Below the pieces are notes generated by a model. That model saw nothing but the letters and a program-made list of their open reading frames with translations. It had not been told where the DNA came from and did no database searches. Of a DNA stretch of 15,227 nt, positions 1,079 to 15,227 are shown one piece after another. The stretch's first letter is position 1. Each line of letters begins with the position of its first letter. The position numbers were made by a program, and so were the translations under genes. The DNA comes from Promethearchaeota archaeon (GTDB lineage: Archaea; Asgardarchaeota; Lokiarchaeia; Sigyniarchaeales; SOKP01), in the NCBI GenBank assembly GCA_048939015.1, contig JBHLPW010000090.1:1-15227 (forward strand), written 5' to 3'.

Positions 1079-1548
1079 AACATTTCACCTCAAAATTATT
1101 TACCTATCTTTAATTTTTAGATTTTAAAAAGTCCATAACGATTTTTGAGTTTTATAATAAACATATTCTTAAGATTAAACTGATATTATTTGGCTAATTT
1201 AAATTTAATCTATTTATATTTGAATAAATAAACTAAGTTGGCTTTTATTAATTTACCCTATTCATCAACAAAATTTTATAAGTAAGTTAAAAGTATTGAA
1301 ATGTTTGTTTTCAACAAATTGACCATTGTAAATGAAAACTATAAAAAAAAATAATTTAAATACGTGATAAATTAGTATAGTACATAGAGAAATATTATTA
1401 TTTTATCCAAATTTTTGATAATTGAATATATAGAGCATAAAAATATATAATTTCATTGATATGATTTTGATAAAGATATTAATGAAATTTATTGATTATT
1501 TTTATTAAAAATTACATTAAAAAGAAAACTGTTAATTAGGCGATTCTG

Positions 1549-1941
1549 CTGGGCAAATTATTTGAAAATTTTTGTGTTTTAGATAAAAAGAATAATATCT
1601 TATTTGAACGTGTAAATGATCAAGAATTTTGTTCTGAATTCTTTGGACAAGTTCTAGCTGCTTTTAATGCCCTAACTCAACACATAGCAGATGGAGAGCT
1701 ATCAAATATAGAGTGGGGAGATAAATTGATAACGATAAAAAAAAAGCAAGAAATTATATTTTTAGCTTGTTGTGACAGTAATGCTAAAGAGGTAAAAGTA
1801 AATGAAGAATTAGACCTTGTATCTAAACGATTTTTAGATATTTATCCTAAAGTCCTGATAGAAGATTTTGAAGGAGATAGAAGTGTATTTTCAAATAGTG
1901 AAAAAAGATTTCTTTCAGAAATTAAATATATAATTGATTAA
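1549..1941 (+). CDS. Longin/roadblock (profilin-like fold) domain protein, ~130 aa
   Basis: The frame of track ORF 1726..1941 is open back to TAG at 1537-1539. CTG at 1549 follows AGGCGA (1538-1543). The extended protein (GKLFENFCVLDKKNNILFER...FFGQVLAAFNALTQHIADGELSNIEWGD...FEGDRSVF) aligns end to end with the 2429..2827 product. Confidence 0.75.
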   Translation: MGKLFENFCVLDKKNNILFERVNDQEFCSEFFGQVLAAFNALTQHIADGELSNIEWGDKLITIKKKQEIIFLACCDSNAKEVKVNEELDLVSKRFLDIYPKVLIEDFEGDRSVFSNSEKRFLSEIKYIID

Positions 1942-2069: not shown

Positions 2070-2402
2070 ATGGTTTTAGATTTGAATTTTTATTTTAGTT
2101 TGTTCTGTTCGATTGGAGGTATAATATTTTTCATTATTAGCCTTTTTATAGTCATTAGAATAAAACAGTTGTTCCCCGCCACAAAATTAGTTAAAAAATG
2201 GGTAATAATACAAATATTGATTGTAATATTTTTAGGGGGATACATTTTTAACATTATATTCTTAGCACTTGAAATGACACCAATTACGAACGTTATGGTT
2301 GCAATTGTTTATATCTTTGGGGGATTATTTGTTTTACTAGTTGTAAATCTGAGCTATAAGACTTATAAAGAAATTCTGATGGGTTCTAGTTCTAAAAAAT
2401 AA
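2070..2402 (+). CDS. Small integral membrane protein with 3 predicted TM helices
   Basis: Three hydrophobic segments (about aa 7-29, 44-67, 73-96), a basic first loop, and motifs W...FLGGY and FGGLFV..V.LS..T. AAGGGA precedes the ATG. Confidence 0.85.
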   Translation: MVLDLNFYFSLFCSIGGIIFFIISLFIVIRIKQLFPATKLVKKWVIIQILIVIFLGGYIFNIIFLALEMTPITNVMVAIVYIFGGLFVLLVVNLSYKTYKEILMGSSSKK

Positions 2403-2428: not shown

Positions 2429-2827
2429 ATGTCTCCATTACTTGATGAACTATGGGTTTTTTCTAAGGCAGGTGTACCTATAGTTGATTTTTCTAAAGAA
2501 AAGAATGTTGATAAAACATTCTTAGGATTCTTTATTTCTGCGATAAAAACATTCAGTGAAAAAGTTTCAGGAAGAGAATTGAAGGGATTTAATATTGGAA
2601 ATAATAAATATACTTGTATTCACTGTTTGGAAGATCAAATTGTACTAGTATGTAGATCACCTTTAGATGTAAATAAAAAAAAAATTCAAAAGATTTGTTC
2701 AGTGATTGGTACTATGTTTGAAAAAATGTTTTCAATTGAACATATTAAAAAGTGGGATGGAGATATTTCTTTTTTTGATGAATTTCAACATAAATTAGAT
2801 TTATATTTTAGAATGAGTGATATTTAA
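2429..2827 (+). CDS. Longin/roadblock-like domain protein, 132 aa
   Basis: LWVFSKAGVPI (beta hairpin), FLGFFISAIKTFSEKV (helix), three strands, a long helix, then WDGDISFF. This order matches small Asgard longin-like proteins. Confidence 0.8.
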   Translation: MSPLLDELWVFSKAGVPIVDFSKEKNVDKTFLGFFISAIKTFSEKVSGRELKGFNIGNNKYTCIHCLEDQIVLVCRSPLDVNKKKIQKICSVIGTMFEKMFSIEHIKKWDGDISFFDEFQHKLDLYFRMSDI

Positions 2828-2995: not shown

Positions 2996-4336
2996 ATGGA
3001 ATTTGGAAATTTTACGGATATTTTGAAAAAACTTGCCGATAGAATAGATGAAAGAGTAGAAAATCATCCAGTACCTAAACATGTATTGTTAAATCGCATT
3101 GATTTAACTGGATTTAAAGATGTTGTAGATCAATATATGAAAAATCGCGACTTATGCAAAAAAACTTTAGATGTAAAAGGCACATGGCGATTAGATTTGG
3201 AATATGGACCACAGTTTGAAACACGATTAAAAACAGAAAGAGCAGGGGAAATTACAGTACAAATGGATGAATTAACTCTGTTTGGAGGAGGTGGTACTGC
3301 ACTCCATCCAATATCTTTATGTATGGCAGGATTTTGTGGATGTTATAGTGCAGCATATGCAAAATGGGCAGCAATGGAAGGGATTGAATTAAAAAAATTA
3401 GCAATTAGAGTTAAGGGGGATTTAGATTTCTCTTCAGTATTAAATATTGAAAAAAACATACCTATAGTCGATAATTACCAAATTGAATTATTTATTGAAA
3501 GTGATGCAAGTTATGAAACATTGTTGAGAATTTCAGAAATTACAAAAAGACGTTGTTTTTGTTATTATTGTATATCAACTTCAACCATCCCAAAAATTAC
3601 ATTAAAGAATGAAGGAAAAGCATTTCTTAATGATAATAATTCAAAATTAAACGATAAAAAAATACTTAACAGAGTAAATTTAGAAAGGTATAATGAAACT
3701 GTCAAAATTTTCAAACAGAATCGTTCATTATGTAAAAGACTTATTGAAGCGGAAGGTAATTGGAGATTAGGTGTTCAGTATGGACCCCAATTCGAAATAA
3801 AATTACCTACAGAAACAGCAGGAGAGATAACTGTCCAAACTGATGAAACAATAATATTAGGTGGGGGTGGAACATCTTTTCATCCTGTAGCACTCTGTAT
3901 TGCCGGTTTTAGTGGTGACTATGCTACTCACTTTGCAACTATTGCAGGGCTACATGGTATTGAACTTAAGAAATTAGAAATTCATTCAAAAATGAACATA
4001 GATTTAACAACTGGATTTGGTATTGAAGATGGTGTCTCTATGATCGATAATTTTGAAATTGAATTAAAGGTTGAAAGTAATGCTCCTGAACAAGAACTCT
4101 TAGAAATTGTTGAACTCGCAAAAAAAAGGGCTTTCTGCCATTATTGCTATTCAACACCAGTTTTTCCAGATATATTTGTGAGAAAAGTTATTTCTAAAGA
4201 GGAAAAACAACTATCTGAAGAACCTGCATATTTACTTGGAAAAAAAGAAGTTGTTCCAAGAAATTTAATACATATTGATGACCCACATAATATTAAGGTA
4301 AAAATTGAGCGAGATATCGCTATGAAAGAATTATAA
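2996..4336 (+). CDS. Tandem double OsmC/Ohr-family protein
   Basis: Two ~175-aa repeats offset by 192 aa, each with LNR(I/V)xL, DExxxxGGGGTxxHP, GIELKKL and a late FCxYC motif. Repeat 1 has LCMAGFCGCY and RRCFCYYC. Confidence 0.85.
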   Translation: MEFGNFTDILKKLADRIDERVENHPVPKHVLLNRIDLTGFKDVVDQYMKNRDLCKKTLDVKGTWRLDLEYGPQFETRLKTERAGEITVQMDELTLFGGGGTALHPISLCMAGFCGCYSAAYAKWAAMEGIELKKLAIRVKGDLDFSSVLNIEKNIPIVDNYQIELFIESDASYETLLRISEITKRRCFCYYCISTSTIPKITLKNEGKAFLNDNNSKLNDKKILNRVNLERYNETVKIFKQNRSLCKRLIEAEGNWRLGVQYGPQFEIKLPTETAGEITVQTDETIILGGGGTSFHPVALCIAGFSGDYATHFATIAGLHGIELKKLEIHSKMNIDLTTGFGIEDGVSMIDNFEIELKVESNAPEQELLEIVELAKKRAFCHYCYSTPVFPDIFVRKVISKEEKQLSEEPAYLLGKKEVVPRNLIHIDDPHNIKVKIERDIAMKEL

Positions 4337-6457
4337 TTTAATTTGATTTTTTATTTCCACTATTTTCTTCTCTAAAGTCATAGCTTTTATAGATTTTCCC
4401 ATACCAACTAGTTTAAGAATTAAAAGCGACTCTTCTGCACAATTTAAAGCCATTTTATTATTTAATTGCATAAAATAACATCCAGCAATATTGTTGAGAA
4501 AATCTGCTTTTGTCTTTAAATCATTAAACATTTCTGCAATTTTTTTTCCACTATTAAATGAATTCATAGCATTTGTATAATCCCTTAAATAATAATGTGA
4601 TTTTCCCAATAAATTGTGAAATTTCATTTCAATTTTAAAATCCTTTAATTCTTGGGAAATTTTAATAGCATCTATAAAATATTTTAGAGCATTTTTATAA
4701 TTTTTTTGATCTAAATGTACTTCTCCAAGTTTTGATAAGTGTCGAGCTTTTCCTTCCTTATTTTTTAATCTTTCATCATATTCTAAAGCTTCTTTGAATT
4801 TCTCCAAAGCAATCGAATAATCCCCAAATTTTTGATAAATTGTTCCAATATTGTTCAAACATATCGCTAAGTTTTTTATATTATTCAAGCGTCTGAAAAT
4901 TTTTTCTGATTTTTGGAAATATTCTAATGATAAATTAAAATTTTCAAGTTTATAATGGATTGATGCAATATTATTTGAAATCATTGCTTTCTTTTTTAAA
5001 TCGCCCAATTTTTCAGCAATTTTAATTGCTTTATCAGAATATATAAGTGCTTCAGTATAAATTTGTAATTCTTCATATATTTCAATAATGCTATTAATGA
5101 TTCTAAGTTCTTCTGTAAGATTATCAGTTTCTTCCAATATTTTCAATGCTTCCTTGTAATAGTGTAATGCTTTAGAAAAATCCTTTATTTTCTCATTAAT
5201 TTCTCCTAAATTACTTAAATAAATAATTTCTCGATCTTTATAACCTAATTCATGAGAAATTCTAAAAGCTTCTTCAAAATTTAAAATGGCTTCAGAATAA
5301 TTTCCCATTTTGAAATAAAACCATGCGATATTATTTAAAATTAGAACTTTATGATTTTGATCATCATTCTCATTAATATATTCTAATGCTCTTATGCCAC
5401 ATCTGAACGAGTCGTCATATCTATCAAAATTAAAGTATAATATATGTGGAATCAAAAATTTCATCATCATATTAGGGTCTTTAAAATTATGAAGTAACCA
5501 ATCTCTGAATTCTATAGAAAAGGCAACAGGATCAAGTTTTACGTCAATATCTATAAAACTTTTTATAAATTTTATTGAATTTACATTTACTCTAAATAAT
5601 TCAACATTTGGATTCTGATTCTTGATCTGAAAGAGAATTTTATCCACATTGTCCATCTTTATGGAAAGTCTTTCATTTTTTATAATCTCGAGAATATTAC
5701 AATTTTCTTGTTCATTTGGAACATGGTTAACCCATATGATTCTTTTCAATTTATGATATTTCTTTAAGATGGGAAGTATATCAAAATCATTTTGTCCAGA
5801 ATAGCCCAATAAAATTAAAATGGCATCATTTAACAATTTATTTAGCAAAACACCTTTATAGGGTTCAACAAAAAATAAGTCGAATTCAGATTTATAGGAA
5901 CCGATTTTTTTAATTAATGAAACAAAGTATTCCTTAGTATTTCTTTCATTTAATATATCTTTCAATGATCCATGAATTTTAAACAAAAATTTCTTCCCTG
6001 TGTTTAAATACTCAAAAATATTCTTAAATTCTTTATAATCTTTTTCAGTTATTACTGAAAAGATATGATCATTATCCTTATTTGATTGAATTAGTGCATG
6101 CTCTATTAAAAAATCAAAATTAGTTGTAATAACCACATACCCTTTGTTTATCATTTCAGCTAGAAAGAAATGAATAATATTAGGCTTCTTGCATTGTTCA
6201 AAATATTCTAATATTTTTAAATCATGATCGAATTGATTTCTAATAATCTCTAAAAATGTTTCAAATCTTAATCCCTTTAAATTAGAAATATTTTCAATTT
6301 CTGATTCTGCACATGTAAATTTTATTATTTCTTCCATCATTTTGGTACTTGATGGAAGATTAGAAGGTGGATTGATAGAACATCCAGCCCCAGCGATAAA
6401 AATATACTTTTGGCCGTCTTTTAACAACTTTTTTAATTGTAAATCTGTTTCATGCAT
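4331..6457 (-). CDS. SIR2-like (SIR2_2) domain fused to a C-terminal TPR solenoid
   Basis: Sirtuin motifs FIAGAGCS..P, ITTNFDFLIE, KIHGS and LLGYSG.NDFD lie in the first ~250 aa. About 8-9 helical repeats of ~40 aa (e.g. LNNIGTIYQKFGDYSIALEKFKEAL) run from aa ~330 to the end. Confidence 0.93.
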   Translation of the reverse strand: MHETDLQLKKLLKDGQKYIFIAGAGCSINPPSNLPSSTKMMEEIIKFTCAESEIENISNLKGLRFETFLEIIRNQFDHDLKILEYFEQCKKPNIIHFFLAEMINKGYVVITTNFDFLIEHALIQSNKDNDHIFSVITEKDYKEFKNIFEYLNTGKKFLFKIHGSLKDILNERNTKEYFVSLIKKIGSYKSEFDLFFVEPYKGVLLNKLLNDAILILLGYSGQNDFDILPILKKYHKLKRIIWVNHVPNEQENCNILEIIKNERLSIKMDNVDKILFQIKNQNPNVELFRVNVNSIKFIKSFIDIDVKLDPVAFSIEFRDWLLHNFKDPNMMMKFLIPHILYFNFDRYDDSFRCGIRALEYINENDDQNHKVLILNNIAWFYFKMGNYSEAILNFEEAFRISHELGYKDREIIYLSNLGEINEKIKDFSKALHYYKEALKILEETDNLTEELRIINSIIEIYEELQIYTEALIYSDKAIKIAEKLGDLKKKAMISNNIASIHYKLENFNLSLEYFQKSEKIFRRLNNIKNLAICLNNIGTIYQKFGDYSIALEKFKEALEYDERLKNKEGKARHLSKLGEVHLDQKNYKNALKYFIDAIKISQELKDFKIEMKFHNLLGKSHYYLRDYTNAMNSFNSGKKIAEMFNDLKTKADFLNNIAGCYFMQLNNKMALNCAEESLLILKLVGMGKSIKAMTLEKKIVEIKNQIKL

Positions 6458-7152: not shown

Positions 7153-7410
7153 CTATTCAGAACCAAGTTGTTTGTCTAAGTCAATCACTAAAGGAACTTC
7201 TTTTTCATCCTTCATAACAACAACCTTCAAAACACCATCCTCAATTGTAGCGCTCACAGGCTCAATCTTGGATACTTTTCCCGTTGTCCTTGAATTTAAG
7301 CAAGTATGTTCCTCGTTGTAGAGATAGCATTTAGTACAGCAGAATCCAACTGGCATGTAGCCGACAATGGAACATTGATCATATGCTTCACAATTACAAT
7401 TATTACACAT
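7153..7410 (-). CDS. Small Cys-rich protein (8 Cys in the first 37 aa) with an Hsp20-like C-terminal beta motif
   Basis: MCNNCNCEAYDQC...FCCTKC...HTC followed by SATIEDGVLKVVV. ATG at 7410 is preferred, because the track's GTG at 7422 lies within an SD-like GAAGTGA. Confidence 0.8.
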   Translation of the reverse strand: MCNNCNCEAYDQCSIVGYMPVGFCCTKCYLYNEEHTCLNSRTTGKVSKIEPVSATIEDGVLKVVVMKDEKEVPLVIDLDKQLGSE

Positions 7411-7570
7411 TTTTTTTGTCACTTCTTATAAATTATTTATTAATTTTTTATAAAATTTCTTGGTTTAATATTTATTATTTATTACTAAAATAATATTATC
7501 ACTTTTCATATTTAAATCTTGTCGTTTTCCGTCATTTTTTGTTTTATTAATGATAGTTTCGCAAAATTTA

Positions 7571-7988: not shown

Positions 7989-8486
7989 ATGTCTGTAATA
8001 AATTTTGAGTTTCGAAATGAGGTATTGAAACATAATGCTTCTTTAAGTTATTGCTATCAATGTAGTACGTGTAGTGGAGGGTGCCCCGTGGCTCTAATAA
8101 CTGGGGGAAGTTATAATCCAAGAAAAATAATTGAAGAAGCTATTTTGGGATTAAAAGATAAACTAGTAGAAATGCAAGACCCTAATCCGTGGCTTTGTTC
8201 AACATGTCAAACATGTGTTGAATTATGTCCTCAAAAAGTCGAGCTTACAGAGATTTTTGCCTTAATAAAAAACGAATGTTTTAATATTGGAAAGGTTCCT
8301 GAAGCATTTATAGCTCAAGGACGAGCAGTTTTGGATAATGGAGTAGCAATACCGTATTCTAAGGCAATTCTATCGAGGAGAGAAAAATTGGGACTTCCCT
8401 CGATAAAAACAGCCTCTCAGGATGAAATAAAGAAGATATTAAAAGTTACTAATTTTGAAAACCATATTCCAAAGGAGGGAGGTTAA
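7989..8486 (+). CDS. hdrC: Heterodisulfide reductase subunit C
   Basis: Two [4Fe-4S] motifs, CYQCSTCSGGCP and WLCSTCQTCVELCP, plus NPRKII and RREKLGLP. Lies directly before hdrB. Confidence 0.95.
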   Translation: MSVINFEFRNEVLKHNASLSYCYQCSTCSGGCPVALITGGSYNPRKIIEEAILGLKDKLVEMQDPNPWLCSTCQTCVELCPQKVELTEIFALIKNECFNIGKVPEAFIAQGRAVLDNGVAIPYSKAILSRREKLGLPSIKTASQDEIKKILKVTNFENHIPKEGG

Positions 8487-8489
8487 GAT

Positions 8490-9353
8490 ATGGCTTATGA
8501 CTTATTTTTAGGATGTGTCATTCCAGCAAGATTACCATTTTTAGAAGCATCATCAAGAAAAGTATTTGAGAAACTTGGTATTAAATTAAATGATGTTGAT
8601 GGATTTAGTTGCTGCCCCGATCCTACAGGTATTGAACTTATTGATCATAAAACATGGTTAACTTTAGGAGCAAGAAATTTAAGTCTTTCAAATAACAATG
8701 GAGGAATCATATCATTTTGTTCAGGGTGTGTTGAGACTCTTAAGGGCGTCAATTATTATATTAATAAAGATCCTGAAACTAAGAATGAAGTAAATAATAT
8801 TTTAAAGAATGTTGGCAAAAAATATGACGGTAAGACAAAAGTAAAGCATTTTGCTGAGGTTCTTTATGAAAATCTTGATAAAGTAAGGGAGAGTGTAGTG
8901 CATCCTTTAACTGGATTTAGAGTAGCAATTCATTATGGATGTCATTATTTAAGACCCTCAGAAATTATTAATTGGGATGATCCTTTTGAACCTACTACAA
9001 TCGATGAGATTGTTAGAGCATTAGGAGCGGATTCGATAGACTATGAAATGAAAATGGAATGTTGTGGAAATCCACTTGAAAAATCAGATAAAGAGCTATC
9101 TTTGCAGATGATAAATAACAAATTTGAATCAATTCAAGAAGCAGGTGCTAATTGTATTACATTAGTCTGCCCTGCATGCTATCAACAATTTGATTTTAAT
9201 CAGCGGGAATTGAATAAAGAAAGAGAGACTGATTATAATTTTCCAGTATTTTATCTTTCAGAATTGGTAGCACTCGCGTTTGGGTTTAATCCTGAAGAAT
9301 TAGGATTTAATTTTCATCGAGTTCGGCCTAAAGGTTTATTAGAAGGATTTTAA
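8490..9353 (+). CDS. hdrB: Heterodisulfide reductase subunit B
   Basis: Two complete CCG domains: FLGCVIP / SCCP / CSGC and HYGCHYLRP / CCG / CPACYQQFD. Confidence 0.96.
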   Translation: MAYDLFLGCVIPARLPFLEASSRKVFEKLGIKLNDVDGFSCCPDPTGIELIDHKTWLTLGARNLSLSNNNGGIISFCSGCVETLKGVNYYINKDPETKNEVNNILKNVGKKYDGKTKVKHFAEVLYENLDKVRESVVHPLTGFRVAIHYGCHYLRPSEIINWDDPFEPTTIDEIVRALGADSIDYEMKMECCGNPLEKSDKELSLQMINNKFESIQEAGANCITLVCPACYQQFDFNQRELNKERETDYNFPVFYLSELVALAFGFNPEELGFNFHRVRPKGLLEGF

Positions 9354-9410
9354 AATTTAAAAGACGTAGAAATTAAATTTATAAATTTAAAAATAAGAAT
9401 TGGTAGAACC

Positions 9411-10505
9411 ATGGGATTAGCAGAAATAAAAACATTTGAAAATTTGCAAGATGATGTGATCTCAGCTAATAGATGTTGTGCCTGCGGTGCGTGCATAGCA
9501 TATTGCGAGAATCAAGCTTTTAATGTTATTGAGATGGATAATTATACTCCAAAGTTCAAAACGGATAAAAGTGTTGAAAATTGTAAAGAATGTGGATATT
9601 GTTATTATATTTGTCCTCAAACTGAGCCTTTATTAGACAGATTAAAAGAAATGTACTTAGTAAAGGATGAACTTGGAAATATAATTGATATTTTTGCCGC
9701 TAAAACCACTAATGAGCAGATTCAAAAAGTTGGACAAGATGGTGGAATAGTATCGACTATTTTGACCTATTTATTTGATACAAATAATATTGATGCTGCA
9801 GTAGTCTCAGAATATGACGAAAATTTTAAACCTATACCTAAAATAATATACCGCAAAGATGATTTGGTAAAATCAGCTGGTACTCGCTATTCTATTTCAT
9901 CTAACATTTTACCTTTAAAAGATTTAAATGAAATCGCAGAGGATATTATCTCCCAAAAGAAAAGAATTTATGATAGGGATCAATTGCGAATTGCTTTTAT
10001 TGGAACACCATGCCAATGTAGAGCTATTAGTAAAATGAAGCTTCTACATATTAAACCAGCACATGTTATTAGTATAGTAATTAATCTTTTTTGTTTTGAA
10101 AATTTTGATTATGATAAATTGATGGATACATTAACATCAAAAACGGCAATTAATCCTTCAGATATTAAAAAAACAAATATTAAGAAGAATTTTTTTGTCA
10201 CCTCGAAAGATGATTCTGTTAAGGAAGTAAATATTAAAGAACTTGATGGTGCTGTAAGGAATCATTGTCATGAATGTGATGAATTTGTAGGAAGATATTC
10301 AGATCTTAGTATTGGTTCCTCTGGAGCTCCTACTGGTTATTCAATGATAATTTCTCGAACTGAAAAGGGACATAATTTAATTGATTCATTACTTGCCACA
10401 GGATATATCGAACGATATATTATTCCAGCAGATCAGATTTCAGAATGGCAACCCAAAAAAATCAATTGGTTAAAAAAAATGACTTCACTAAAGGTAAAGA
10501 AATAA
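9411..10505 (+). CDS. F420-interacting FrhB/FdhB/FpoF-family flavoprotein with an N-terminal 2x[4Fe-4S] domain
   Basis: CCACGACIAYC, CKECGYCYYICP, GQDGGIVS, AGTRY, GTPCQ, LFC.ENF, CHEC.EF, DLSIGS and SRTEKG. Confidence 0.93.
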   Translation: MGLAEIKTFENLQDDVISANRCCACGACIAYCENQAFNVIEMDNYTPKFKTDKSVENCKECGYCYYICPQTEPLLDRLKEMYLVKDELGNIIDIFAAKTTNEQIQKVGQDGGIVSTILTYLFDTNNIDAAVVSEYDENFKPIPKIIYRKDDLVKSAGTRYSISSNILPLKDLNEIAEDIISQKKRIYDRDQLRIAFIGTPCQCRAISKMKLLHIKPAHVISIVINLFCFENFDYDKLMDTLTSKTAINPSDIKKTNIKKNFFVTSKDDSVKEVNIKELDGAVRNHCHECDEFVGRYSDLSIGSSGAPTGYSMIISRTEKGHNLIDSLLATGYIERYIIPADQISEWQPKKINWLKKMTSLKVKK

Positions 10506-10520
10506 AAGAAGGTGAGAAAT

Positions 10521-11825
10521 GTGGCTAAAAATTCTAAAAGTGCTCTAATTATAGGAGCGGGTATTGCAGGTATTCAAGCTGCTTTAGATTTAGGAGATAT
10601 GGGAATAAAAGTATATTTAATTGAAAAGAATCCTGTGATTGGAGGAAAAATGGCGCAATTAGACAAAACTTTTCCTACTTTAGACTGTTCAATTTGTATT
10701 CTAGCACCCAAATTATCAGAATGTTATAGACATCCAAATATTACGTTATACACACTTTCAGAAGTAAGTAATGTTGAGGGGACCAGTGGGAATTTTACAG
10801 TAGATATCTTTAAACGCGCACGTTATGTAAAGGAAGAAGCATGTACTAATTGTGGTGATTGTGCTTCAATTTGTCCTGTCAGGGGTGTACCAAACTATTT
10901 TGACGCTAATTTGAAAAATATGGCAGCAGCCTATATACCGTTTCCTTCGGCAGTTCCTCCTGTACATATAATCGATAAGAATTCATGTGTTTATTTAAAT
11001 TATGGAATTTGTGGATTATGTGCCAATAATTGTGGAGCTGAGGCAATTGATTTCTCACAAAAAGACGAAACTATAAAGATTGAAAATATTGGTTGTATAA
11101 TTGTTGCTCCTGGATATGGTTTATTGGAAGACGTCAGTCCGCTTACGAAATATGGTTACGGAAAATATAGAAATGTTGTGACCGCTTTAGAATTTGAGCG
11201 GTTAATTTGTGCTTCTGGTCCATTGGAAGGGCATTTAAAAAGACTATCAGATGGGAATGAACCTAAGAAACTTGCTTTTCTGCAGTGTATAGGGTCCCGT
11301 TCAGATAGAGATAGGCAATATTGTTCTTCTATATGTTGTATGTATACTACTAAAGCAGCAATGATTGCCTATGAACATAATAATGATTTAGAATCATATG
11401 TTTTTTATATTGATATGAGAGCAGGAGGAAAGGGATTTCAAAATTTTCTCCGCAGAGGAGCAAGTGAATATGACATTAAATATATTAAAAGTAAAATATC
11501 TCATATCGAGGTTGATGAGGATGAAAGTCCCATTATAACATATGAAGATTATGATACATCAGAAATAAAACAGATGAAAGTAGATTTAGCAATTTTAGCA
11601 ACCTGCATAATCCCATCTCCTGGAATTGAAAAGTTAGCAGATGTATTAGGAATTGAATTAAATAATTATAAGTTTATAAAAACAGATCCATTTTTACCAG
11701 TAGAAACGAGTGTAGAAGGTATCTTCACATGTGGTTGTGCTCGTGAACCAATGGATATCCCTCGTTCTGTTGCTGAAGCTAGCGGAGCAGCAGCAAGAGC
11801 AGCGGAAGTAATTAAAGGAGGTTAA
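10521..11825 (+). CDS. hdrA: HdrA-like flavoprotein, first half of a split long-type HdrA
   Basis: GAGIAGIQAALDL, MAQLDKTFPTLDCSIC, an inserted 2x[4Fe-4S] domain, QCIGSR and YCSSICCM. Lacks the RIGVFVC N-domain and the C-terminal ferredoxin. GTG at 10521 is preferred because AGGTGA at 10510-10515 is the SD. Confidence 0.93.
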   Translation: MAKNSKSALIIGAGIAGIQAALDLGDMGIKVYLIEKNPVIGGKMAQLDKTFPTLDCSICILAPKLSECYRHPNITLYTLSEVSNVEGTSGNFTVDIFKRARYVKEEACTNCGDCASICPVRGVPNYFDANLKNMAAAYIPFPSAVPPVHIIDKNSCVYLNYGICGLCANNCGAEAIDFSQKDETIKIENIGCIIVAPGYGLLEDVSPLTKYGYGKYRNVVTALEFERLICASGPLEGHLKRLSDGNEPKKLAFLQCIGSRSDRDRQYCSSICCMYTTKAAMIAYEHNNDLESYVFYIDMRAGGKGFQNFLRRGASEYDIKYIKSKISHIEVDEDESPIITYEDYDTSEIKQMKVDLAILATCIIPSPGIEKLADVLGIELNNYKFIKTDPFLPVETSVEGIFTCGCAREPMDIPRSVAEASGAAARAAEVIKGG

Positions 11826-11832
11826 AACGATT

Positions 11833-13515
11833 ATGAGTGAAAAAAAAGAAGAAGATGTTCGAATTGGCGTTTTCGTTTGTAGTTGTGGTTCAAATATTGG
11901 AGGTTTAATAAATGTTAAAGATGTGGCAGAATATGCTAAATCTCTCCCCAATGTTGTATTTACTCAAGATAATTTATATACGTGCTCAGAAACAGGATTA
12001 GCCCAGATAAAGAAGGGAATTAAAGAACATAATCTGAATCGTGTTGTTGTCGCTTCATGCACTCCAAGAACTCATGAACCTTTATTCCGTGATTGTATCA
12101 AAGAGGAAGGTGTTAATGAGTATTTATTTGAATTCGTCAATATTCGAGATCAAGATACGTGGGTTCATATGAAATATCCAGAAGAGGCATTTAAAAAAGC
12201 TAAAGACGTAATCCGTATGGGAGTAGCAAAAGCAGCTAAACTGGAAGCTCTTGAAAATATCGTGGTAGATGCAACTCCAACTGCTATGGTAATTGGAGGA
12301 GGGGTCTCAGGAATAACCGCTGCTCTTAGTCTAGCCAATCAAGGGTTTGAGACACATTTAGTAGAAAAAGATAATCAATTAGGGGGAAAATTGAATGTCC
12401 TAAATAAATTATTCCCTACAGGTCAAGATGCCACTGAACTTTTAGAAAGCTTAAAAGAAAGGATTAAAAATAACTCGAATTTAACTGTGTATACTTCTGC
12501 AAAAGTGACTAATATTGAAGGTTTTGTAGGAAATTATGAAGTAGAAGTCCAACAAAATAGTAAAACTACTAATTTAACGATAGGTGTCATCGTAGTTGCT
12601 GTTGGAGCGTCTTTATTAACACCTACTGGAAAATTTGGTTATGATGGGAAGAAGAGAATCACCCAGTATGAATTAGAAGAGAAACTTAAGAATAATGACG
12701 TTAACGCTAACAACATTGTAATGATTCAATGTGTAGGAGCTCGTAATGATGAAAGAAAATACTGTTCTAATGTTTGTTGTATGAGCGCTTTGAAAAATGC
12801 TTTATTACTTAAAGAAAAAAATCCTAATGCGAATATCACAATTTTATTTAGAGATCTGTATACTCCTGGAACTCATTATGAAGAATATTATAGAAGAGCA
12901 AGGGAAGCAGGAGTAATATTTCTGAGTTATAAACTCGAAAAGGAACCTATTGTAGAGGAAAATAACATAAAAGTATATAATGAATATATAGGAGAAGAAA
13001 TGAGTGTACCTTATGAATTATTGGTATTATCTACCCCATTGATCGCTAACGATGATAATAAAGAGCTTGCTCAAATGCTTAAGGTACCATTAGAAGAAAA
13101 TAAATTCTTCTTGGAAGCCCACGTAAAATTAAGACCTATGGATTTTGCTACTGATGGTGTTTTTATATGTGGGGCAGCAAAATGGCCAGTTGATATTACA
13201 GAATCAATAACTCAAGGATATGCAGCAGCAGGAAGAGCGAGTACAATTATATCCCATGATACTATCGAAGTAGAAGGGGCAACATCATTTCTGCCTGAGT
13301 ATAATAAGGATTTATGTACCGGATGTGAAGTTTGTATTAACGTGTGTCCCTATAAAGCGATAAGTAAGAATGAGGATGATGAGATTGAAATTACTCAAGT
13401 TCTTTGTAAAGGGTGCGGAGTTTGCGGAGCTACCTGCACCAATCATGCCATAATAATAAGACATTTTACGGATGAACAAATTTTATCTGAAATTTATGCA
13501 TTTGGAGGGAGCTAA
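11833..13515 (+). CDS. hdrA: HdrA-like flavoprotein, second half of a split long-type HdrA
   Basis: RIGVFVCSCGSNIGG, ASCTPRTHE, NIRDQ, GGGVSG, QCVGAR, YCSNVCCM, EAHVKLRP, and C-terminal CTGCEVC...CP / CKGCGVC...C. No inserted ferredoxin. Confidence 0.95.
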   Translation: MSEKKEEDVRIGVFVCSCGSNIGGLINVKDVAEYAKSLPNVVFTQDNLYTCSETGLAQIKKGIKEHNLNRVVVASCTPRTHEPLFRDCIKEEGVNEYLFEFVNIRDQDTWVHMKYPEEAFKKAKDVIRMGVAKAAKLEALENIVVDATPTAMVIGGGVSGITAALSLANQGFETHLVEKDNQLGGKLNVLNKLFPTGQDATELLESLKERIKNNSNLTVYTSAKVTNIEGFVGNYEVEVQQNSKTTNLTIGVIVVAVGASLLTPTGKFGYDGKKRITQYELEEKLKNNDVNANNIVMIQCVGARNDERKYCSNVCCMSALKNALLLKEKNPNANITILFRDLYTPGTHYEEYYRRAREAGVIFLSYKLEKEPIVEENNIKVYNEYIGEEMSVPYELLVLSTPLIANDDNKELAQMLKVPLEENKFFLEAHVKLRPMDFATDGVFICGAAKWPVDITESITQGYAAAGRASTIISHDTIEVEGATSFLPEYNKDLCTGCEVCINVCPYKAISKNEDDEIEITQVLCKGCGVCGATCTNHAIIIRHFTDEQILSEIYAFGGS

Positions 13516-13519
13516 GATT

Positions 13520-14281
13520 ATGGATTTCGAACCGAAAATATTAGGATTTTTATGTAATTGGTGTTCTTATGCAGGGGCAGATTTAGCAGGAGTTAGTAGA
13601 ATGCAATATCCACCTAATATACGAGTAATAAGGGTTATGTGTAGTGGTCGTATAGATCCTAAATTTATTTTTGAAGCACTTCGAGTTGGTGCTGATGGTG
13701 TAATTGTTTTAGGGTGTCATTTAGGTGATTGTCATTATCTTGAAGGAAATTATGAAGCCGAGAAAAAATTTGATATGACGAAACGATTCCTAAAACTAAT
13801 TAATTTTGATAATAGAGTAAGATTGGATTGGGTTTCTGCCTCTGAAGGTGCCAGATATGCTCAGGTTATTACCGAATTTACAGATCATATCAAAGCACTA
13901 GGACCATCTCCAATTGGAGGAGATAATCCTGATAAAGAAATACTTAATAAATTAAAGGCAATTGAAGATGCCGCTGCAAGTGATCGAATGAGAGCACTTG
14001 TAGGAAGAGAAAGAAAGATTACAGAACAAGAAAATGTATATGGAGAACAAATCTCCCTAGATAAATTTAATAAAGTTTTTGATTCAGCTATTATGGAAGA
14101 ATATGAACGAAATAGAATTTTAGTTTCATTAGAAGAAGATACTAAGTCTATTAAAAGTTTAGCAGCTGAATTAGAAATCGATCCGAGTGTTGTTTTAGAA
14201 CATATTGTATATTTAAAGAGTCGGGGTCAAGTTGATTTTGGAGAATTTATGGGAATAACTCCAATGTTTTATAAAATGTAA
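13520..14281 (+). CDS. mvhD: MvhD/FlpD [2Fe-2S] protein with a ~110-aa C-terminal extension (wHTH-like)
   Basis: FLCNWCSYAGADLAG, RVMCSGR, GCHLGDCHY and WVSASEG. ATG at 13520 follows GGAGG (13504-13508) and lies 4 nt after the hdrA stop. The track start at 13472 overlaps hdrA. Confidence 0.94.
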   Translation: MDFEPKILGFLCNWCSYAGADLAGVSRMQYPPNIRVIRVMCSGRIDPKFIFEALRVGADGVIVLGCHLGDCHYLEGNYEAEKKFDMTKRFLKLINFDNRVRLDWVSASEGARYAQVITEFTDHIKALGPSPIGGDNPDKEILNKLKAIEDAAASDRMRALVGRERKITEQENVYGEQISLDKFNKVFDSAIMEEYERNRILVSLEEDTKSIKSLAAELEIDPSVVLEHIVYLKSRGQVDFGEFMGITPMFYKM

Positions 14282-14292
14282 GGAGGAGAAAA

Positions 14293-15227
14293 ATGGAAAA
14301 AGTAGGAGCTGTAATGGTTGTAGGCGCTGGTATTGGGGGCTCTCAGTCAGCGCTGGATTTAGGTGATTCTGGTTATAAGGTTTATTTAATTGAGTCTTCA
14401 ACGAGTATAGGTGGTGTAATGGCTCAATTGGATAAGACTTTTCCCACAAATGATTGTGCGATGTGTATAGTCAGCCCTAAGTTAGTAGAAACGGGTAGGC
14501 ATCAGAACATTGATTTGAGTATTAATTGCGAAATTCAAGATGTTTCGGGAGAAGCAGGCAACTTTACTGTCAAAGTGAAGAAAAATTCGCTTTATATTAA
14601 TCCAGATATATGTACAGGTTGTGGAGTTTGCGGTCGTAATTGTCCAGTTGAGGCAATTGATTTATTTAATGAAGGATTAGCAAAATATCACGCCACATCT
14701 GTGAAATATCCTCAGGCAGTACCATTAGTATATGCAATTAATAAGGAATATTGTATAGGATGTGGAGTATGTGCTGGAGTATGTAAAGCTAAAGCAGTTG
14801 AATATGATCGAGACGATGAGATTGTCGATATCAATGTAGGGGCTATAATTTTAGCACCTGGTTTTGACGAATTTGTACCTCAAGCAGCTAATAAATATGG
14901 GTATGGGAAATTTAAAAATGTAGTGTCCAGTATTGAATTTGAACGTATCTTATCTGCTTCAGGACCTTATGCTGGAAAAGTTCTCAGGCCTTCTGATGGT
15001 GATATACCTGAAAAAGTTGCTTTTCTTCAATGTATAGGATCTCGAGACTATACTGGAGTAGGACAGCCTTATTGTTCTTCAGTATGCTGCATGTATACTG
15101 CAAAAGAAGCTGTAATCGCTCATGAACATCAACATGAAGTAAAACCTACTATTTTTAGCATGGATATTAGAGCCTATGGAAAAGATTTTGATAAATATAT
15201 TATTAGAGCTCAAGAAGAATATGGAGT
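14293..15227 (+). CDS. hdrA: Further HdrA-like flavoprotein (long-type N-terminus), truncated by the window end
   Basis: Not in the ORF track because it has no stop in the window. After AGGAGG it reads MEKVGAVMVVGAGIGGSQSALDLG...MAQLDKTFPTNDCAMC...CTGCGVCGRNCP...CIGCGVCAGVC...QCIGSRD...YCSSVCCM and is open to the end. Confidence 0.95.
   Translation, partial: MEKVGAVMVVGAGIGGSQSALDLGDSGYKVYLIESSTSIGGVMAQLDKTFPTNDCAMCIVSPKLVETGRHQNIDLSINCEIQDVSGEAGNFTVKVKKNSLYINPDICTGCGVCGRNCPVEAIDLFNEGLAKYHATSVKYPQAVPLVYAINKEYCIGCGVCAGVCKAKAVEYDRDDEIVDINVGAIILAPGFDEFVPQAANKYGYGKFKNVVSSIEFERILSASGPYAGKVLRPSDGDIPEKVAFLQCIGSRDYTGVGQPYCSSVCCMYTAKEAVIAHEHQHEVKPTIFSMDIRAYGKDFDKYIIRAQEEYG

What the first reader, a model, noticed from the sequence alone, without database searches (positions are those of the whole stretch)
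4331..6457. SIR2-TPR protein: candidate single-gene NAD+-depleting immune or signalling receptor
Seen: an intact sirtuin NAD-binding loop (GAGCS), the catalytic-type Asn (TTNFD) and His (KIHGS), and no Zn-binding CxxC pairs. The domain joins directly to ~8-9 TPRs with no NTPase between. Known: Zn-less SIR2 domains are NADase effectors in Thoeris ThsA, DSR1/2, Sir2-HerA, SPARSA and Avs5, and TPR arrays sense viral proteins in Avs systems. Inference: a minimal sensor-effector in which TPR binding of a viral or cellular ligand activates NADase. No other defence genes or mobile elements are in the window, so a housekeeping NAD/redox-signalling role remains possible.
Basis: partly seen in the sequence, partly recalled or inferred. 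Interest (0 to 1): 0.72.

Follow-up and report, generated by a model that had tools for sequence, protein, structure and literature searches.

The report
Asgard SIR2-TPR NAD-cleaving switch gene
An Asgard (Promethearchaeota) archaeon carries an intact gene joining a defence-type NAD-cleaving SIR2 domain directly to an eight-repeat TPR peptide-binding arm. This copy is a stably inherited gene, conserved beside a double OsmC-like redox gene, so a cellular stress switch is about as likely as a virus sensor.

Summary
Window 4331-6457(-) is an intact 708-aa ORF. It has a Zn-less SIR2_2 ("SIRim") domain with GAGCS 23-27, Asn113 and His162, and no CxxC or Walker A. This domain joins directly to one degenerate and eight regular 40-residue LGN-like TPRs.

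The modelled SIR2 domain is closest to proven defence NADases: SPARSA Z 19.5; DSR2, ThsA and KomC about 17.5; SIRT3 13.8. The family is large (647 clusters at E<=1e-30). It is nearly confined to one Asgard order, with 0-14 copies per genome and six here.

This copy does not behave like a mobile, fast-evolving defence gene:
- Its orthologue is 708-709 aa and intact in 14 of 14 species of a sub-clade.
- It always lies tail-to-tail with a double-OsmC gene, and the two gene trees agree.
- Its TPR arm is as constrained as its catalytic core (dN 0.08 each; omega about 0.15-0.2).
- Sister lineages place a 946-aa relative at the head of a ten-gene same-strand cluster ending in that OsmC gene.

No defence genes flank it, and no close relative lies on viral contigs.

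Best reading: a ligand-gated NADase whose trigger is a conserved ligand, whether cellular or viral. NADase activity is untested. The scan had already noted the five paralogues elsewhere in this genome.

The parts
4331..6457 (-). SIR2-TPR gene, 708 aa (P0001)
   Evidence: Intact ORF. Pfam SIR2_2 plus TPR families. Orthologues of 708-709 aa without stops in 13 other species.
5543..6457 (-). SIR2 (SIRim-type) Rossmann domain, aa 1-305, with an eight-stranded sheet and a helical insert at aa 37-104
   Evidence: AF2 model pLDDT 88.5, pTM 0.90. VIA-align aligns residues 1-305 to SPARSA, DSR2, ThsA and KomC at Z 17-19.5. The profile hits SPARSA Sir2 at E 1.8e-5.
6377..6391 (-). GAGCS NAD-binding loop (aa 23-27)
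   Evidence: G23 and S27 are invariant in 35 family members.
6113..6127 (-). TTNFD motif with the catalytic-type Asn113
   Evidence: T111, T112, N113 and D115 are invariant. The motif aligns to TTNFD of SPARSA Sir2 and TTNYD of SIR2-HerA.
5966..5980 (-). KIHGS motif with the catalytic-type His162
   Evidence: K160 and G163 are invariant, and H162 is present in 33 of 35 members. The motif aligns to KLHGS of SIR2-HerA.
5780..5806 (-). GYSGxxDxD motif (aa 218-226), a family hallmark
   Evidence: G218, Y219 and S220 are invariant; D224 and D226 are at least 90% conserved. The motif aligns to GYSGRDE of SPARSA Sir2.
5360..5542 (-). Linker helices plus the degenerate first TPR (aa 306-366). The wider segment aa 246-340 is the fastest-evolving part of the protein.
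   Evidence: Helices 317-324, 330-343 and 347-359. For aa 246-340, dN is 0.22 against 0.08 in the flanking domains.
4400..5359 (-). Eight 40-residue LGN/Pins-type TPRs (aa 367-686) carrying an LNNIG 'Asn' motif in helix A
   Evidence: Repeat register and helices. Foldseek best matches are LGN/Pins TPR-peptide complexes at TMt 0.74-0.81. phmmer hits GPSM2 at E 3.5e-15.
4334..4399 (-). C-terminal capping helix (aa 687-708)
   Evidence: Helix 690-707 in the model.
2996..4336 (+). Double OsmC-like gene (446 aa). It is convergent with the SIR2-TPR gene, and the 3' ends overlap by 6 nt. It is the conserved partner locus.
   Evidence: Pfam OsmC twice. NCBIfam OsmC-related (seleno)protein, 104.5 bits against a cut-off of 95. 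Adjacent to the SIR2-TPR orthologue in 14 of 14 species. Gene trees are congruent.
2429..2827 (+). rb132, a 132-aa weakly longin-like protein belonging to the conserved neighbourhood
   Evidence: 83-92% identical in the sub-clade. Found next to the 946-aa SIR2-TPR in genus g14 and G045. Fuz_longin_1 E 0.058. BLASTP E 4e-5 to the g14 longin.
2070..2402 (+). tm110, a small hydrophobic (membrane-like) protein that always lies just upstream of rb132
   Evidence: Sequence. The tm-rb132 pair is conserved across at least 9 genera.
1540..1941 (+). Longin-domain gene (about 133 aa). There is no canonical start codon before the TTG at 1726.
   Evidence: Pfam Fuz_longin_1, 27.9 bits against a cut-off of 26.1. 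Translation. Homologous to the longin gene of the g14 cluster.

Best explanation
The gene encodes a self-contained, NTPase-less NAD+ hydrolase switch.

Its N-terminal Zn-less SIR2 (SIRim-class) domain would cleave NAD+ using Asn113 and His162. The C-terminal LGN-like eight-repeat TPR solenoid would bind an extended peptide or protein in its concave groove. By analogy with DSR2, ThsA, Avs5, KomC and FAM118B, that binding would gate catalysis through an allosteric or oligomerisation step.

This copy is one fixed-specificity member of an order-restricted Asgard family. Paralogues of that family keep the SIR2 core and differ in the TPR arm.

This orthogroup is vertically inherited and uniformly constrained. 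It is chromosomally tied to a double OsmC-like redox gene and a longin/membrane gene set. Its trigger is therefore most likely a conserved ligand, and its output a regulated NAD+ drop causing growth arrest or death. I put the ligand as cellular or stress-derived slightly ahead of a conserved viral protein.

Shown: the architecture, the conserved residues, the fold class, the family distribution, the synteny and the selection pattern.
Inferred: NADase activity, ligand gating, and the nature of the trigger.
For: - The SIR2_2 domain scores above the Pfam cut-off, and there is no NTPase.
- There is no CxxC pair and no Walker A.
- Asn113 is invariant and His162 is present in 33 of 35 relatives.
- The profile matches only defence-type SIR2s significantly: SPARSA 1.8e-5, SIR2-HerA 8e-4, KomC 2.6e-3.
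- The structural ranking runs SPARSA 19.5; DSR2, ThsA and KomC 17.5-17.6; SIR2-HerA 15.7; FAM118B 14.7; Avs5 14.4; SIRT3 13.8.
- The model has eight beta-strands, matching the '7 or more' criterion for SIRims in 10.1101/2024.09.18.613514.
- The TPR arm superposes on LGN/Pins-peptide complexes at TMt 0.74-0.81.
- Across paralogues the SIR2 core stays conserved (0.76) while the TPR arm does not (0.56). Within the orthogroup both are equal (0.77 against 0.76), and helix A is more often invariant than helix B (31% against 18% of columns).
- dN is 0.08 for both domains against 0.07-0.08 for OsmC2.
- The OsmC2 pairing holds in 14 of 14 species, including one translocation of the pair as a unit. The gene trees are congruent.
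- An operon-like ten-gene cluster, with a 946-aa relative at its head and the OsmC gene near its end, occurs in G045 and genus g14.
Against: - No biochemical data exist.
- PADLOC gives only partial, weak hits (PDC-S65 1.8e-8 over about 90 residues), so this is no recognised system.
- No model coordinates were available, so autoinhibition and oligomer interfaces could not be examined.
- Convergent genes are not co-transcribed, so the OsmC2 pairing could reflect physical linkage alone.
- The tm110-rb132 pair occurs without any SIR2-TPR in other genera and among housekeeping genes. The neighbourhood therefore does not need the SIR2-TPR.
- The sister relationship of the 946-aa group to this orthogroup has only UFBoot 46.
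- Purifying selection on the sensor does not exclude sensing of a conserved viral protein.
Confidence: 0.55

Rival explanations
1. Germline-type antiviral abortive-infection sensor, DSR2-like. The TPR arm recognises a conserved structural protein of Asgard viruses. Binding releases the NADase and depletes NAD+. The six paralogues would form a repertoire of receptors with different viral targets. The neighbourhood with OsmC and longin genes would be incidental.
For: - Every experimentally characterised relative found by fold or profile search is an anti-phage or innate-immune NADase (10.1101/2024.09.18.613514).
- Copy number varies 0-6 within the genus and 0-14 within the order. 83 of 101 family genomes carry at least one copy.
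- Paralogues differ mainly in the sensor arm.
- Architectures are shuffled, with N-terminal extensions and a 3154-aa protein matching the SIR2 profile in three stretches.
- The 5' side of the gene is a synteny breakpoint with at least five different neighbours.
Against: - No defence gene lies in the window or in the g14 cluster.
- Retention in 14 of 14 species at one locus, with congruent trees, is atypical for prokaryotic defence genes.
- The TPR arm shows no accelerated evolution and no change in repeat number.
- No close relative lies on IMG/VR viral contigs, so there is no sign of mobility.
Confidence: 0.3
2. NAD-dependent protein-modifying enzyme. The SIR2 domain ADP-ribosylates or deacylates a client that the TPR arm recruits. 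One candidate client is the neighbouring double-OsmC protein, whose C-terminal tail is specific to the linked species. This would regulate an oxidative-stress response, and NAD+ would not be depleted in bulk.
For: - Linkage to the OsmC-like gene is strict.
- The OsmC2 C-terminal motif N[LI]IHIDxPHNIK is conserved in the 12 linked species aligned and differs in the two unlinked out-group species.
- From my own knowledge, not tested here: macrodomain-linked sirtuins (SirTM) ADP-ribosylate a partner in an oxidative-stress operon.
Against: - The domain lacks the Zn module of deacylating sirtuins.
- It scores far below the deacylase model: NCBIfam PRK00481 gives 25 bits against a cut-off of 221.
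- It is structurally nearer to NADases than to SIRT3.
- The tail motif may simply track phylogeny.
- No macrodomain or other eraser lies in the window.
Confidence: 0.1
3. Catalytically silent scaffold. The SIR2 fold serves only as an NAD(H)-binding or oligomerisation module on a TPR adaptor.
For: Two family members (G010, G016) have GADCS and Tyr in place of His162. This shows that the family tolerates degenerate copies.
Against: In this orthogroup and in 33 of 35 relatives, all catalytic-type and NAD-loop residues are kept under purifying selection.
Confidence: 0.05

Closest known systems
DSR2 (defence-associated sirtuin 2, Bacillus subtilis)
   Same: An N-terminal Zn-less SIR2 NADase is fused directly to a long alpha-helical repeat sensor, with no NTPase. 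Structural match Z 17.6, rmsd 3.5 A over 246 residues. It is a single-polypeptide sensor-effector.
   Different: - The DSR2 sensor is not a TPR array.
- No DSR model in PADLOC is hit.
- About 18-20% identity.
- DSR2 is bacterial and binds a phage tail-tube protein.
- This gene is Asgard-specific, LGN-type TPR, vertically inherited and OsmC-linked.
SIR2-APAZ of SPARSA (short pAgo-associated SIR2)
   Same: It is the nearest SIR2 domain by profile (8jkz, E 1.8e-5), by structure (Z 19.5) and by PADLOC Aga_SIR2 (4e-5 here; 1e-11 for the 946-aa relative). It shares the TTNFD and GYSG motifs.
   Different: There is no APAZ domain here and no Argonaute partner in the window. Its activation is guided by nucleic acid.
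ThsA (Thoeris) and KomC (Kongming)
   Same: The same SIRim fold (Z 17.5-17.6). Both are NADases gated by a ligand-binding module and by oligomerisation.
   Different: ThsA carries a SLOG domain and needs a TIR partner. KomC is a stand-alone SIR2 activated through KomB and dITP. Neither partner is present here.
Avs5 (SIR2-STAND) and eukaryotic SIRim-NACHT/NB-ARC-TPR proteins (clade A of 10.1101/2024.09.18.613514)
   Same: A SIR2 effector combined with a C-terminal repeat sensor, including TPR.
   Different: Those have a STAND NTPase between effector and sensor. Here there is none: no Walker A and no NTPase Pfam hit. Structural match Z 14.4.
Human FAM118B / SIRanc
   Same: A SIRim-class SIR2 involved in NAD+ processing (Z 14.7).
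   Different: It has no TPR arm. The profile match is E 0.064 only.
LGN/GPSM2/Pins TPR domain
   Same: An eight-repeat, 40-residue TPR superhelix. TMt 0.74-0.81, rmsd 3.4-4.2 A. phmmer E 3.5e-15.
   Different: It is a eukaryotic polarity scaffold with no enzymatic domain. The resemblance is in fold and repeat type, not orthology.
Classical sirtuins (CobB, Sir2, SIRT3)
   Same: Rossmann NAD-binding core with catalytic Asn and His (Z 13.8).
   Different: The Zn-binding CxxC module is absent. The model has eight strands rather than six. The deacylase model scores 25 bits against a cut-off of 221.

Membership tests
SIR2_2 / SIRim subfamily of SIR2 | Match to Pfam PF13289 above the gathering score | tested here: met
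   38.1 bits against a cut-off of 24.5. 41.3 bits in the genome scan.
SIR2_2 / SIRim subfamily of SIR2 | Rossmann sheet with seven or more strands and no Zn-ribbon module (criteria in 10.1101/2024.09.18.613514) | tested here: met
   Eight strands of at least 3 residues in the AF2 model. No CxxC pair. Criterion read.
SIR2_2 / SIRim subfamily of SIR2 | Conserved catalytic Asn and His and a G-A-G-x-S NAD loop | tested here: met
   N113 is invariant, H162 is in 33 of 35, and G23 and S27 are invariant. They align to the same motifs in SPARSA Sir2 and SIR2-HerA.
SIR2_2 / SIRim subfamily of SIR2 | NAD+ hydrolase activity | not testable with these tools
   This needs an enzyme assay.
DSR2 | Sequence membership (PADLOC/DefenseFinder DSR2 model) | tested here: not met
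   No DSR model appears among the PADLOC hits at E <= 0.1.
DSR2 | SIR2 fused to a helical-repeat sensor without an NTPase | tested here: met
   The resemblance is in architecture only.
Thoeris ThsA | C-terminal SLOG (or Macro) domain and an adjacent TIR (ThsB) gene | tested here: not met
   The C-terminus is TPR. No TIR is found in the window ORFs.
SPARSA (SIR2-APAZ + short pAgo) | APAZ domain and a neighbouring short Argonaute | tested here: not met
   Only the SIR2 part matches, at residues 90-163 for Aga_SIR2. No Argonaute is found among the neighbours.
SIR2-HerA | Adjacent HerA ATPase gene | tested here: not met
   The neighbours are OsmC-like, longin, Hdr and Mvh genes.
Avs5 / SIR2-STAND NLR-like | Central STAND NTPase (Walker A/B) | tested here: not met
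   No Walker A. No NACHT, NB-ARC or AAA hit.
Classical sirtuin deacylases | Zn-binding four-Cys module and a match to deacylase models | tested here: not met
   No CxxC pair. NF001752 gives 25.2 bits against a cut-off of 221.
PADLOC candidate system PDC-S65 | Full-length match to the PDC-S65 model | tested here: inconclusive
   E 1.8e-8, but only residues 87-176 against profile positions 118-201 of 592.
Asgard SIR2-TPR family (as defined here) | A roughly 330-aa N-terminal domain with GAGxS, TTNFD, K[IL]HGS, GYSGxDDFD and W242, followed by TPR_12-type repeats | tested here: met
   Alignments A1 and A2. 212 homologues, all named ones from Promethearchaeota, Lokiarchaeota or Hermodarchaeota. 647 clusters at E <= 1e-30.

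The most novel reading that the evidence does not exclude
A defence-type SIR2 NADase has been domesticated in an Asgard lineage as a vertically inherited cellular switch. Its LGN-like TPR arm would read a host signal from the linked double-OsmC, longin and membrane gene set, for example the OsmC tail under peroxide stress. It would lower NAD+ to impose dormancy or death. That would be a prokaryotic counterpart of eukaryotic NAD-cleaving signalling enzymes, such as SARM1 or SIRanc, arising in the archaeal lineage closest to eukaryotes.
Probability: 0.22. Interest if true: 0.75.

Novelty: new variant of a known kind. Interest (0 to 1): 0.52.

Why it matters
SIR2 NADases are central effectors of prokaryotic immunity and have eukaryotic immune descendants.

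An Asgard-restricted family of several hundred sequence clusters couples this effector directly to a eukaryote-like (LGN-type) TPR peptide reader, without a STAND NTPase. That family is an undescribed branch of this toolkit. A full-text search for 'SIR2-TPR' found no paper, and sources annotate the proteins only as 'tetratricopeptide repeat protein'.

This orthogroup is the most stable member found here. It has fixed length and fixed position, with its sensor under the same constraint as its enzyme. That makes it the best entry point for finding the ligand, and for testing whether such switches serve antiviral defence or cellular stress signalling in the closest archaeal relatives of eukaryotes.

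Tried and rejected
Synteny was done instead through the genome search and the fetch from genomes.
- phmmer of the N-terminal 343 aa against PDB found nothing. Only the profile search worked.
- Rfam found no RNA family in the window.
- The sigma-70 promoter and terminator scan is not meaningful for an archaeon and was not enriched.
- No RNA holder was listed among sequencing runs.
- The viral-contig scan gave only three remote hits at 27-28% identity.
- The ESM Atlas search gave only generic SIR2_2 clusters scoring 0.89.
- The first IQ-TREE run timed out. A reduced set gave UFBoot 46 for the node joining the 946-aa group to this orthogroup, so co-orthology rests mainly on position.
- Idea rejected: that the tm110-rb132 module is a conflict system with swappable effectors. 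In eight other genomes its neighbours were not SIR2-TPR, OsmC2 or cluster genes. Those scanned were housekeeping-type: rubredoxin reductase, flavodoxin, mannosidase, metallo-beta-lactamase and rRNA methyltransferase.
- Idea rejected: that SIR2-TPR paralogues recurrently neighbour longin or roadblock genes in this genome. PF19036, PF03259 and PF13774 hits lie near none of the other five paralogues, apart from one sub-threshold hit 3.9 kb from the 1835-aa gene.
- A link to eukaryotic SIRim clades D and E or to 'TPR-like' sirims could not be tested, because no eukaryotic sequences were on hand.


Full report
**What is there**

Window 4331-6457 on the minus strand is one intact 708-codon ORF. Its first roughly 305 residues match Pfam SIR2_2 above the curated cut-off (38.1 against 24.5 bits). 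Residues 340-680 match TPR_12, TPR_1 and TPR_2 strongly, and no NTPase family is hit.

There is no CxxC pair and no Walker A.

A full-length AlphaFold2 model (pLDDT 90.6, pTM 0.77) shows a Rossmann domain, then two linker helices and one degenerate helix pair. Eight regular 40-residue helix pairs (367-683) and a capping helix follow.

**Organism and family**

The genome is a 4.86-Mb, 29.8% GC assembly. The nearest homologues are annotated as Promethearchaeota, Lokiarchaeota or Hermodarchaeota MAGs, all under the name 'tetratricopeptide repeat protein'. The gene's DNA turns up in sediment metagenomes.

The genome holds six SIR2_2 genes. Pfam was run on two of them; by sequence all six carry TPR-like repeats after the SIR2 domain. 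Their lengths range from 708 to 1835 aa.

A profile of 35 N-terminal domains finds 647 50%-identity clusters at E<=1e-30 and 2590 at E<=1e-10 in 1.84 billion representatives. In whole genomes the distribution is as follows:
- 83 of 101 genomes of the same family carry it.
- In a phylum-wide sample, only 2 genomes outside the window's own family and one sister family carry it.
- Copy number is 0-6 in the genus and up to 14 in the order.
- Some members carry N-terminal additions such as E2/UQ_con, TBP-like, SEC-C, zinc ribbons or TatD. One 3154-aa protein matches the SIR2 profile in three stretches.

**Class of the SIR2 domain**

In the 35-sequence alignment the following residues are invariant: G23, S27, P31, E66, D77, N93, H96, T111, T112, N113, D115, E119, K160, G163, G218, Y219, S220 and W242. 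H162 is kept in 33 sequences. The two exceptions also have GADCS and look degenerate.

The profile matches only defence-type SIR2 chains in the PDB: SPARSA Sir2 (E 1.8e-5), SIR2-HerA (8e-4), KomC (2.6e-3), ThsA (0.055) and FAM118B (0.064). TTNFD aligns to TTNFD/TTNYD, and KIHGS aligns to KLHGS.

A domain model (pLDDT 88.5, pTM 0.90) has eight strands. Foldseek ranks DSR2, KomC, SIR2-HerA, SPARSA and ThsA first. VIA-align gives these Z scores:
- SPARSA 19.5
- DSR2 17.6
- SeThsA 17.6
- KomC 17.5
- SIR2-HerA 15.7
- FAM118B 14.7
- Avs5 14.4
- SIRT3 13.8

The preprint 10.1101/2024.09.18.613514 defines the 'SIRim' subfamily by seven or more strands and conserved NAD-pocket residues. This domain fits that definition. 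PADLOC gives only weak, partial hits (PDC-S65 1.8e-8; Aga_SIR2 4e-5), so it is not a member of any catalogued system.

**The TPR arm**

The repeats have a 40-residue period and carry an L-N-N-I-G motif in helix A. The best natural sequence and fold matches are the eight-repeat TPR domains of LGN/GPSM2/Pins, solved with extended peptides in their groove. phmmer gives E 3.5e-15. Foldseek gives TMt 0.74-0.81 and rmsd 3.4-4.2 A.

That this type of TPR binds peptides through its concave face is established knowledge of those structures. That it does so here is inference.

**Is this copy a fast-evolving, mobile immune gene?**

A strict orthologue is found in 13 other species of a sub-clade of the genus. 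It is 708-709 aa, has no stops, and is 60-83% identical. In every case it lies tail-to-tail with the double OsmC-like gene. In the window the two ORFs overlap by 6 nt at their 3' ends. Every species with a double-OsmC orthologue at 73% identity or more has the pair.

In G053 the pair has moved as a unit to the other side of the cc228...rb132 block. ML trees of the two genes recover the same two groups and the same terminal pairs.

Nei-Gojobori estimates for the two closest species are as follows:

| Region | dN | Approx. omega |
|---|---|---|
| SIR2 core (aa 1-245) | 0.08 | 0.15-0.2 |
| TPR array (aa 341-708) | 0.08 | 0.15-0.2 |
| Linker (aa 246-340) | 0.21-0.22 | 0.5 |
| OsmC gene | 0.07-0.08 | about 0.16 |
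| rb132 | 0.03-0.04 | about 0.09 |

The proportion of synonymous differences (pS) was 0.30-0.38 throughout.

In a 23-sequence orthogroup the mean majority-residue fraction is 0.77 for the SIR2 core and 0.76 for the TPR arm. Across 28 paralogues it is 0.76 against 0.56. Helix A, which lines the groove, is more often invariant than helix B (31% against 18% of columns). So specificity differs between paralogues but is frozen within this one.

The 5' side of the gene is a synteny breakpoint with at least five different neighbours. In G024 and G007 that neighbour is a 1699-aa multi-PAS histidine kinase, 18 nt upstream on the same strand. No defence genes flank the gene, and no close relative is on IMG/VR contigs.

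**A wider neighbourhood**

In the out-group lineage G045 (same genus) and in genus g14 (G112, G162, G174), a 946-947-aa SIR2-TPR heads a collinear, same-strand, short-spaced ten-gene cluster. That protein is 33-35% identical to ours. The cluster runs in this order:
1. SIR2-TPR
2. tm113
3. rb132
4. a 667-730-aa ORC/CDC6-like (weakly nSTAND5-like) ATPase
5. a PCI-like protein
6. a coiled-coil protein
7. a longin protein
8. a coiled-coil protein
9. the double OsmC gene
10. a coiled-coil protein

The window's sub-clade keeps the longin gene, tm110, rb132, the double OsmC gene and a SIR2-TPR, which now lies convergent behind OsmC. It lacks the ATPase, the PCI-like gene and the coiled-coil gene at the locus. 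The longin gene is at window 1540-1941 and has no canonical start before a TTG at 1726.

In N-terminal-domain trees the 946-aa group falls next to this orthogroup, but with only UFBoot 46. Co-orthology is therefore suggested mainly by position.

The tm110-rb132 pair is older and more widespread, found in at least 9 genera. In those other genera it lies beside no SIR2-TPR, OsmC2 or cluster gene, and the neighbours scanned were housekeeping-type. It is even present in genomes without any SIR2-TPR. So the module does not need the SIR2-TPR. Rather, the SIR2-TPR was recruited to this neighbourhood in the g1 and g14 lineages and has stayed there through two rearrangements.

The C-terminal tail of the OsmC protein carries a motif, N[LI]IHIDxPHNIK. 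It is conserved in the 12 linked species aligned and different in the two unlinked out-group species. This is a lead for a TPR ligand, not evidence.

**Mechanism**

Most likely (about 0.55), this is a ligand-gated NADase. The TPR groove binds a conserved peptide or protein, which relieves inhibition or drives oligomerisation of the SIR2 domain. The domain then hydrolyses NAD+ through Asn113 and His162.

Within that mechanism I cannot separate a conserved cellular or stress trigger from a conserved viral protein:
- For a cellular or stress trigger: vertical inheritance, OsmC/longin linkage, uniform constraint, and no defence context.
- For a viral trigger: all characterised relatives are immune effectors, the family is expanded and copy-variable, and paralogues differ in the sensor.

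Less likely alternatives are a protein-modifying enzyme acting on a TPR-recruited client such as OsmC (about 0.1) and a silent scaffold (about 0.05).

**Relation to earlier notes of this scan**

The other five paralogues in this genome were already noted and two were followed up. Those follow-ups reached the same domain-level reading and named DSR2 as the closest known system. One described its copy as an optional gene deleted repeatedly in relatives.

The present copy differs. It is the stable, fixed-length, OsmC-linked member. A lead from another note, SIR2-TPR beside longin and GTPase genes, prompted a test for recurrent longin or roadblock neighbours. That test did not support recurrence for the other paralogues.

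**Verdict**

This is a real feature and a new variant of a known kind: a SIR2-NADase sensor-effector with an LGN-type TPR sensor and no NTPase, restricted to Asgard archaea. It is of moderate interest.

The immune label is unproven for this copy. The most useful new facts are the frozen sensor, the strict pairing with the double-OsmC gene, and the ancestral-looking ten-gene cluster.

Noticed in passing
window 7989-15225 (+): An operon-like row of redox genes: HdrC-like, HdrB-like, FrhB/FdhB-like, HdrA-like (437 aa), HdrA-like (560 aa), an MvhD/FlpD-like protein with a C-terminal ArsR-type HTH, and a third HdrA-like gene cut off by the window end. It is conserved at 83-89% identity in G001. A second, more distant Hdr set (34-47% identity) flanks the cc228 side in G024, G014, G007 and G041; G277 shows an HdrB-like match on the same side.
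   Followed up: partly
window 7153-7422 (-): An 85-89-aa Cys-rich ORF (CNNCNCEAYDQC...CCTKC) lies between the SIR2-TPR gene and hdrC. It is 91% identical in G001 and not found at the locus in the other orthologue-bearing species. It has no family match.
   Followed up: partly
window 1540-1941 (+): A longin-domain gene (Pfam Fuz_longin_1, 27.9 bits) whose reading frame is open from 1540. It has no ATG, GTG or TTG before the TTG at 1726. This suggests a non-canonical start codon or an annotation trap. The ORF listing reports only the 71-aa tail.
   Followed up: partly
G000:C14:41960-43036: A single-domain OsmC paralogue (63% identical to one half of the double OsmC) lies divergently next to a 373-aa ORF with a sub-threshold longin match (24.4 bits). 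This is a second OsmC-longin adjacency in the same genome.
   Followed up: no
L021:10636-15735 (-) (G024; also G007, L025:550-2748): A 1699-aa multi-PAS histidine kinase (PAS, HisKA, HATPase_c) ends 18 nt upstream of the SIR2-TPR orthologue on the same strand in G024. G007 has a homologue in the same position. The two genes may be co-transcribed there.
   Followed up: partly
L056:3396-13812 (-) (G162); same order in L057, L061 and L046+L060: A ten-gene same-strand cluster headed by a 946-aa SIR2-TPR. It includes an ORC/CDC6-like (weakly nSTAND5-like) ATPase, a PCI-like protein, a longin protein and coiled-coil proteins, and ends with a double OsmC. None of the non-SIR2 genes matches a PADLOC model beyond coiled-coil noise.
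   Followed up: partly
L044 and L045 (G010:C152:16937-17959; G016:C12:1889-2905): Two family members, in open frames of 1182 and 1299 aa, have GADCS instead of GAGCS and Tyr in place of the catalytic His. They look like catalytically degenerate copies.
   Followed up: no
L046:7647-9335 (+) (G045): In G045 the coiled-coil gene and the double OsmC gene are fused into one 562-aa ORF. A stretch of this locus reads X (withheld or N bases).
   Followed up: no
P0098, P0038, P0085, P0143 (family members): Family members with extra domains: an E2 ubiquitin-conjugating domain (PF00179) N-terminal to the SIR2 domain, a TBP-like domain (PF00352), a TatD DNase domain (PF01026), and a 3154-aa protein matching the SIR2 profile in three stretches.
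   Followed up: no
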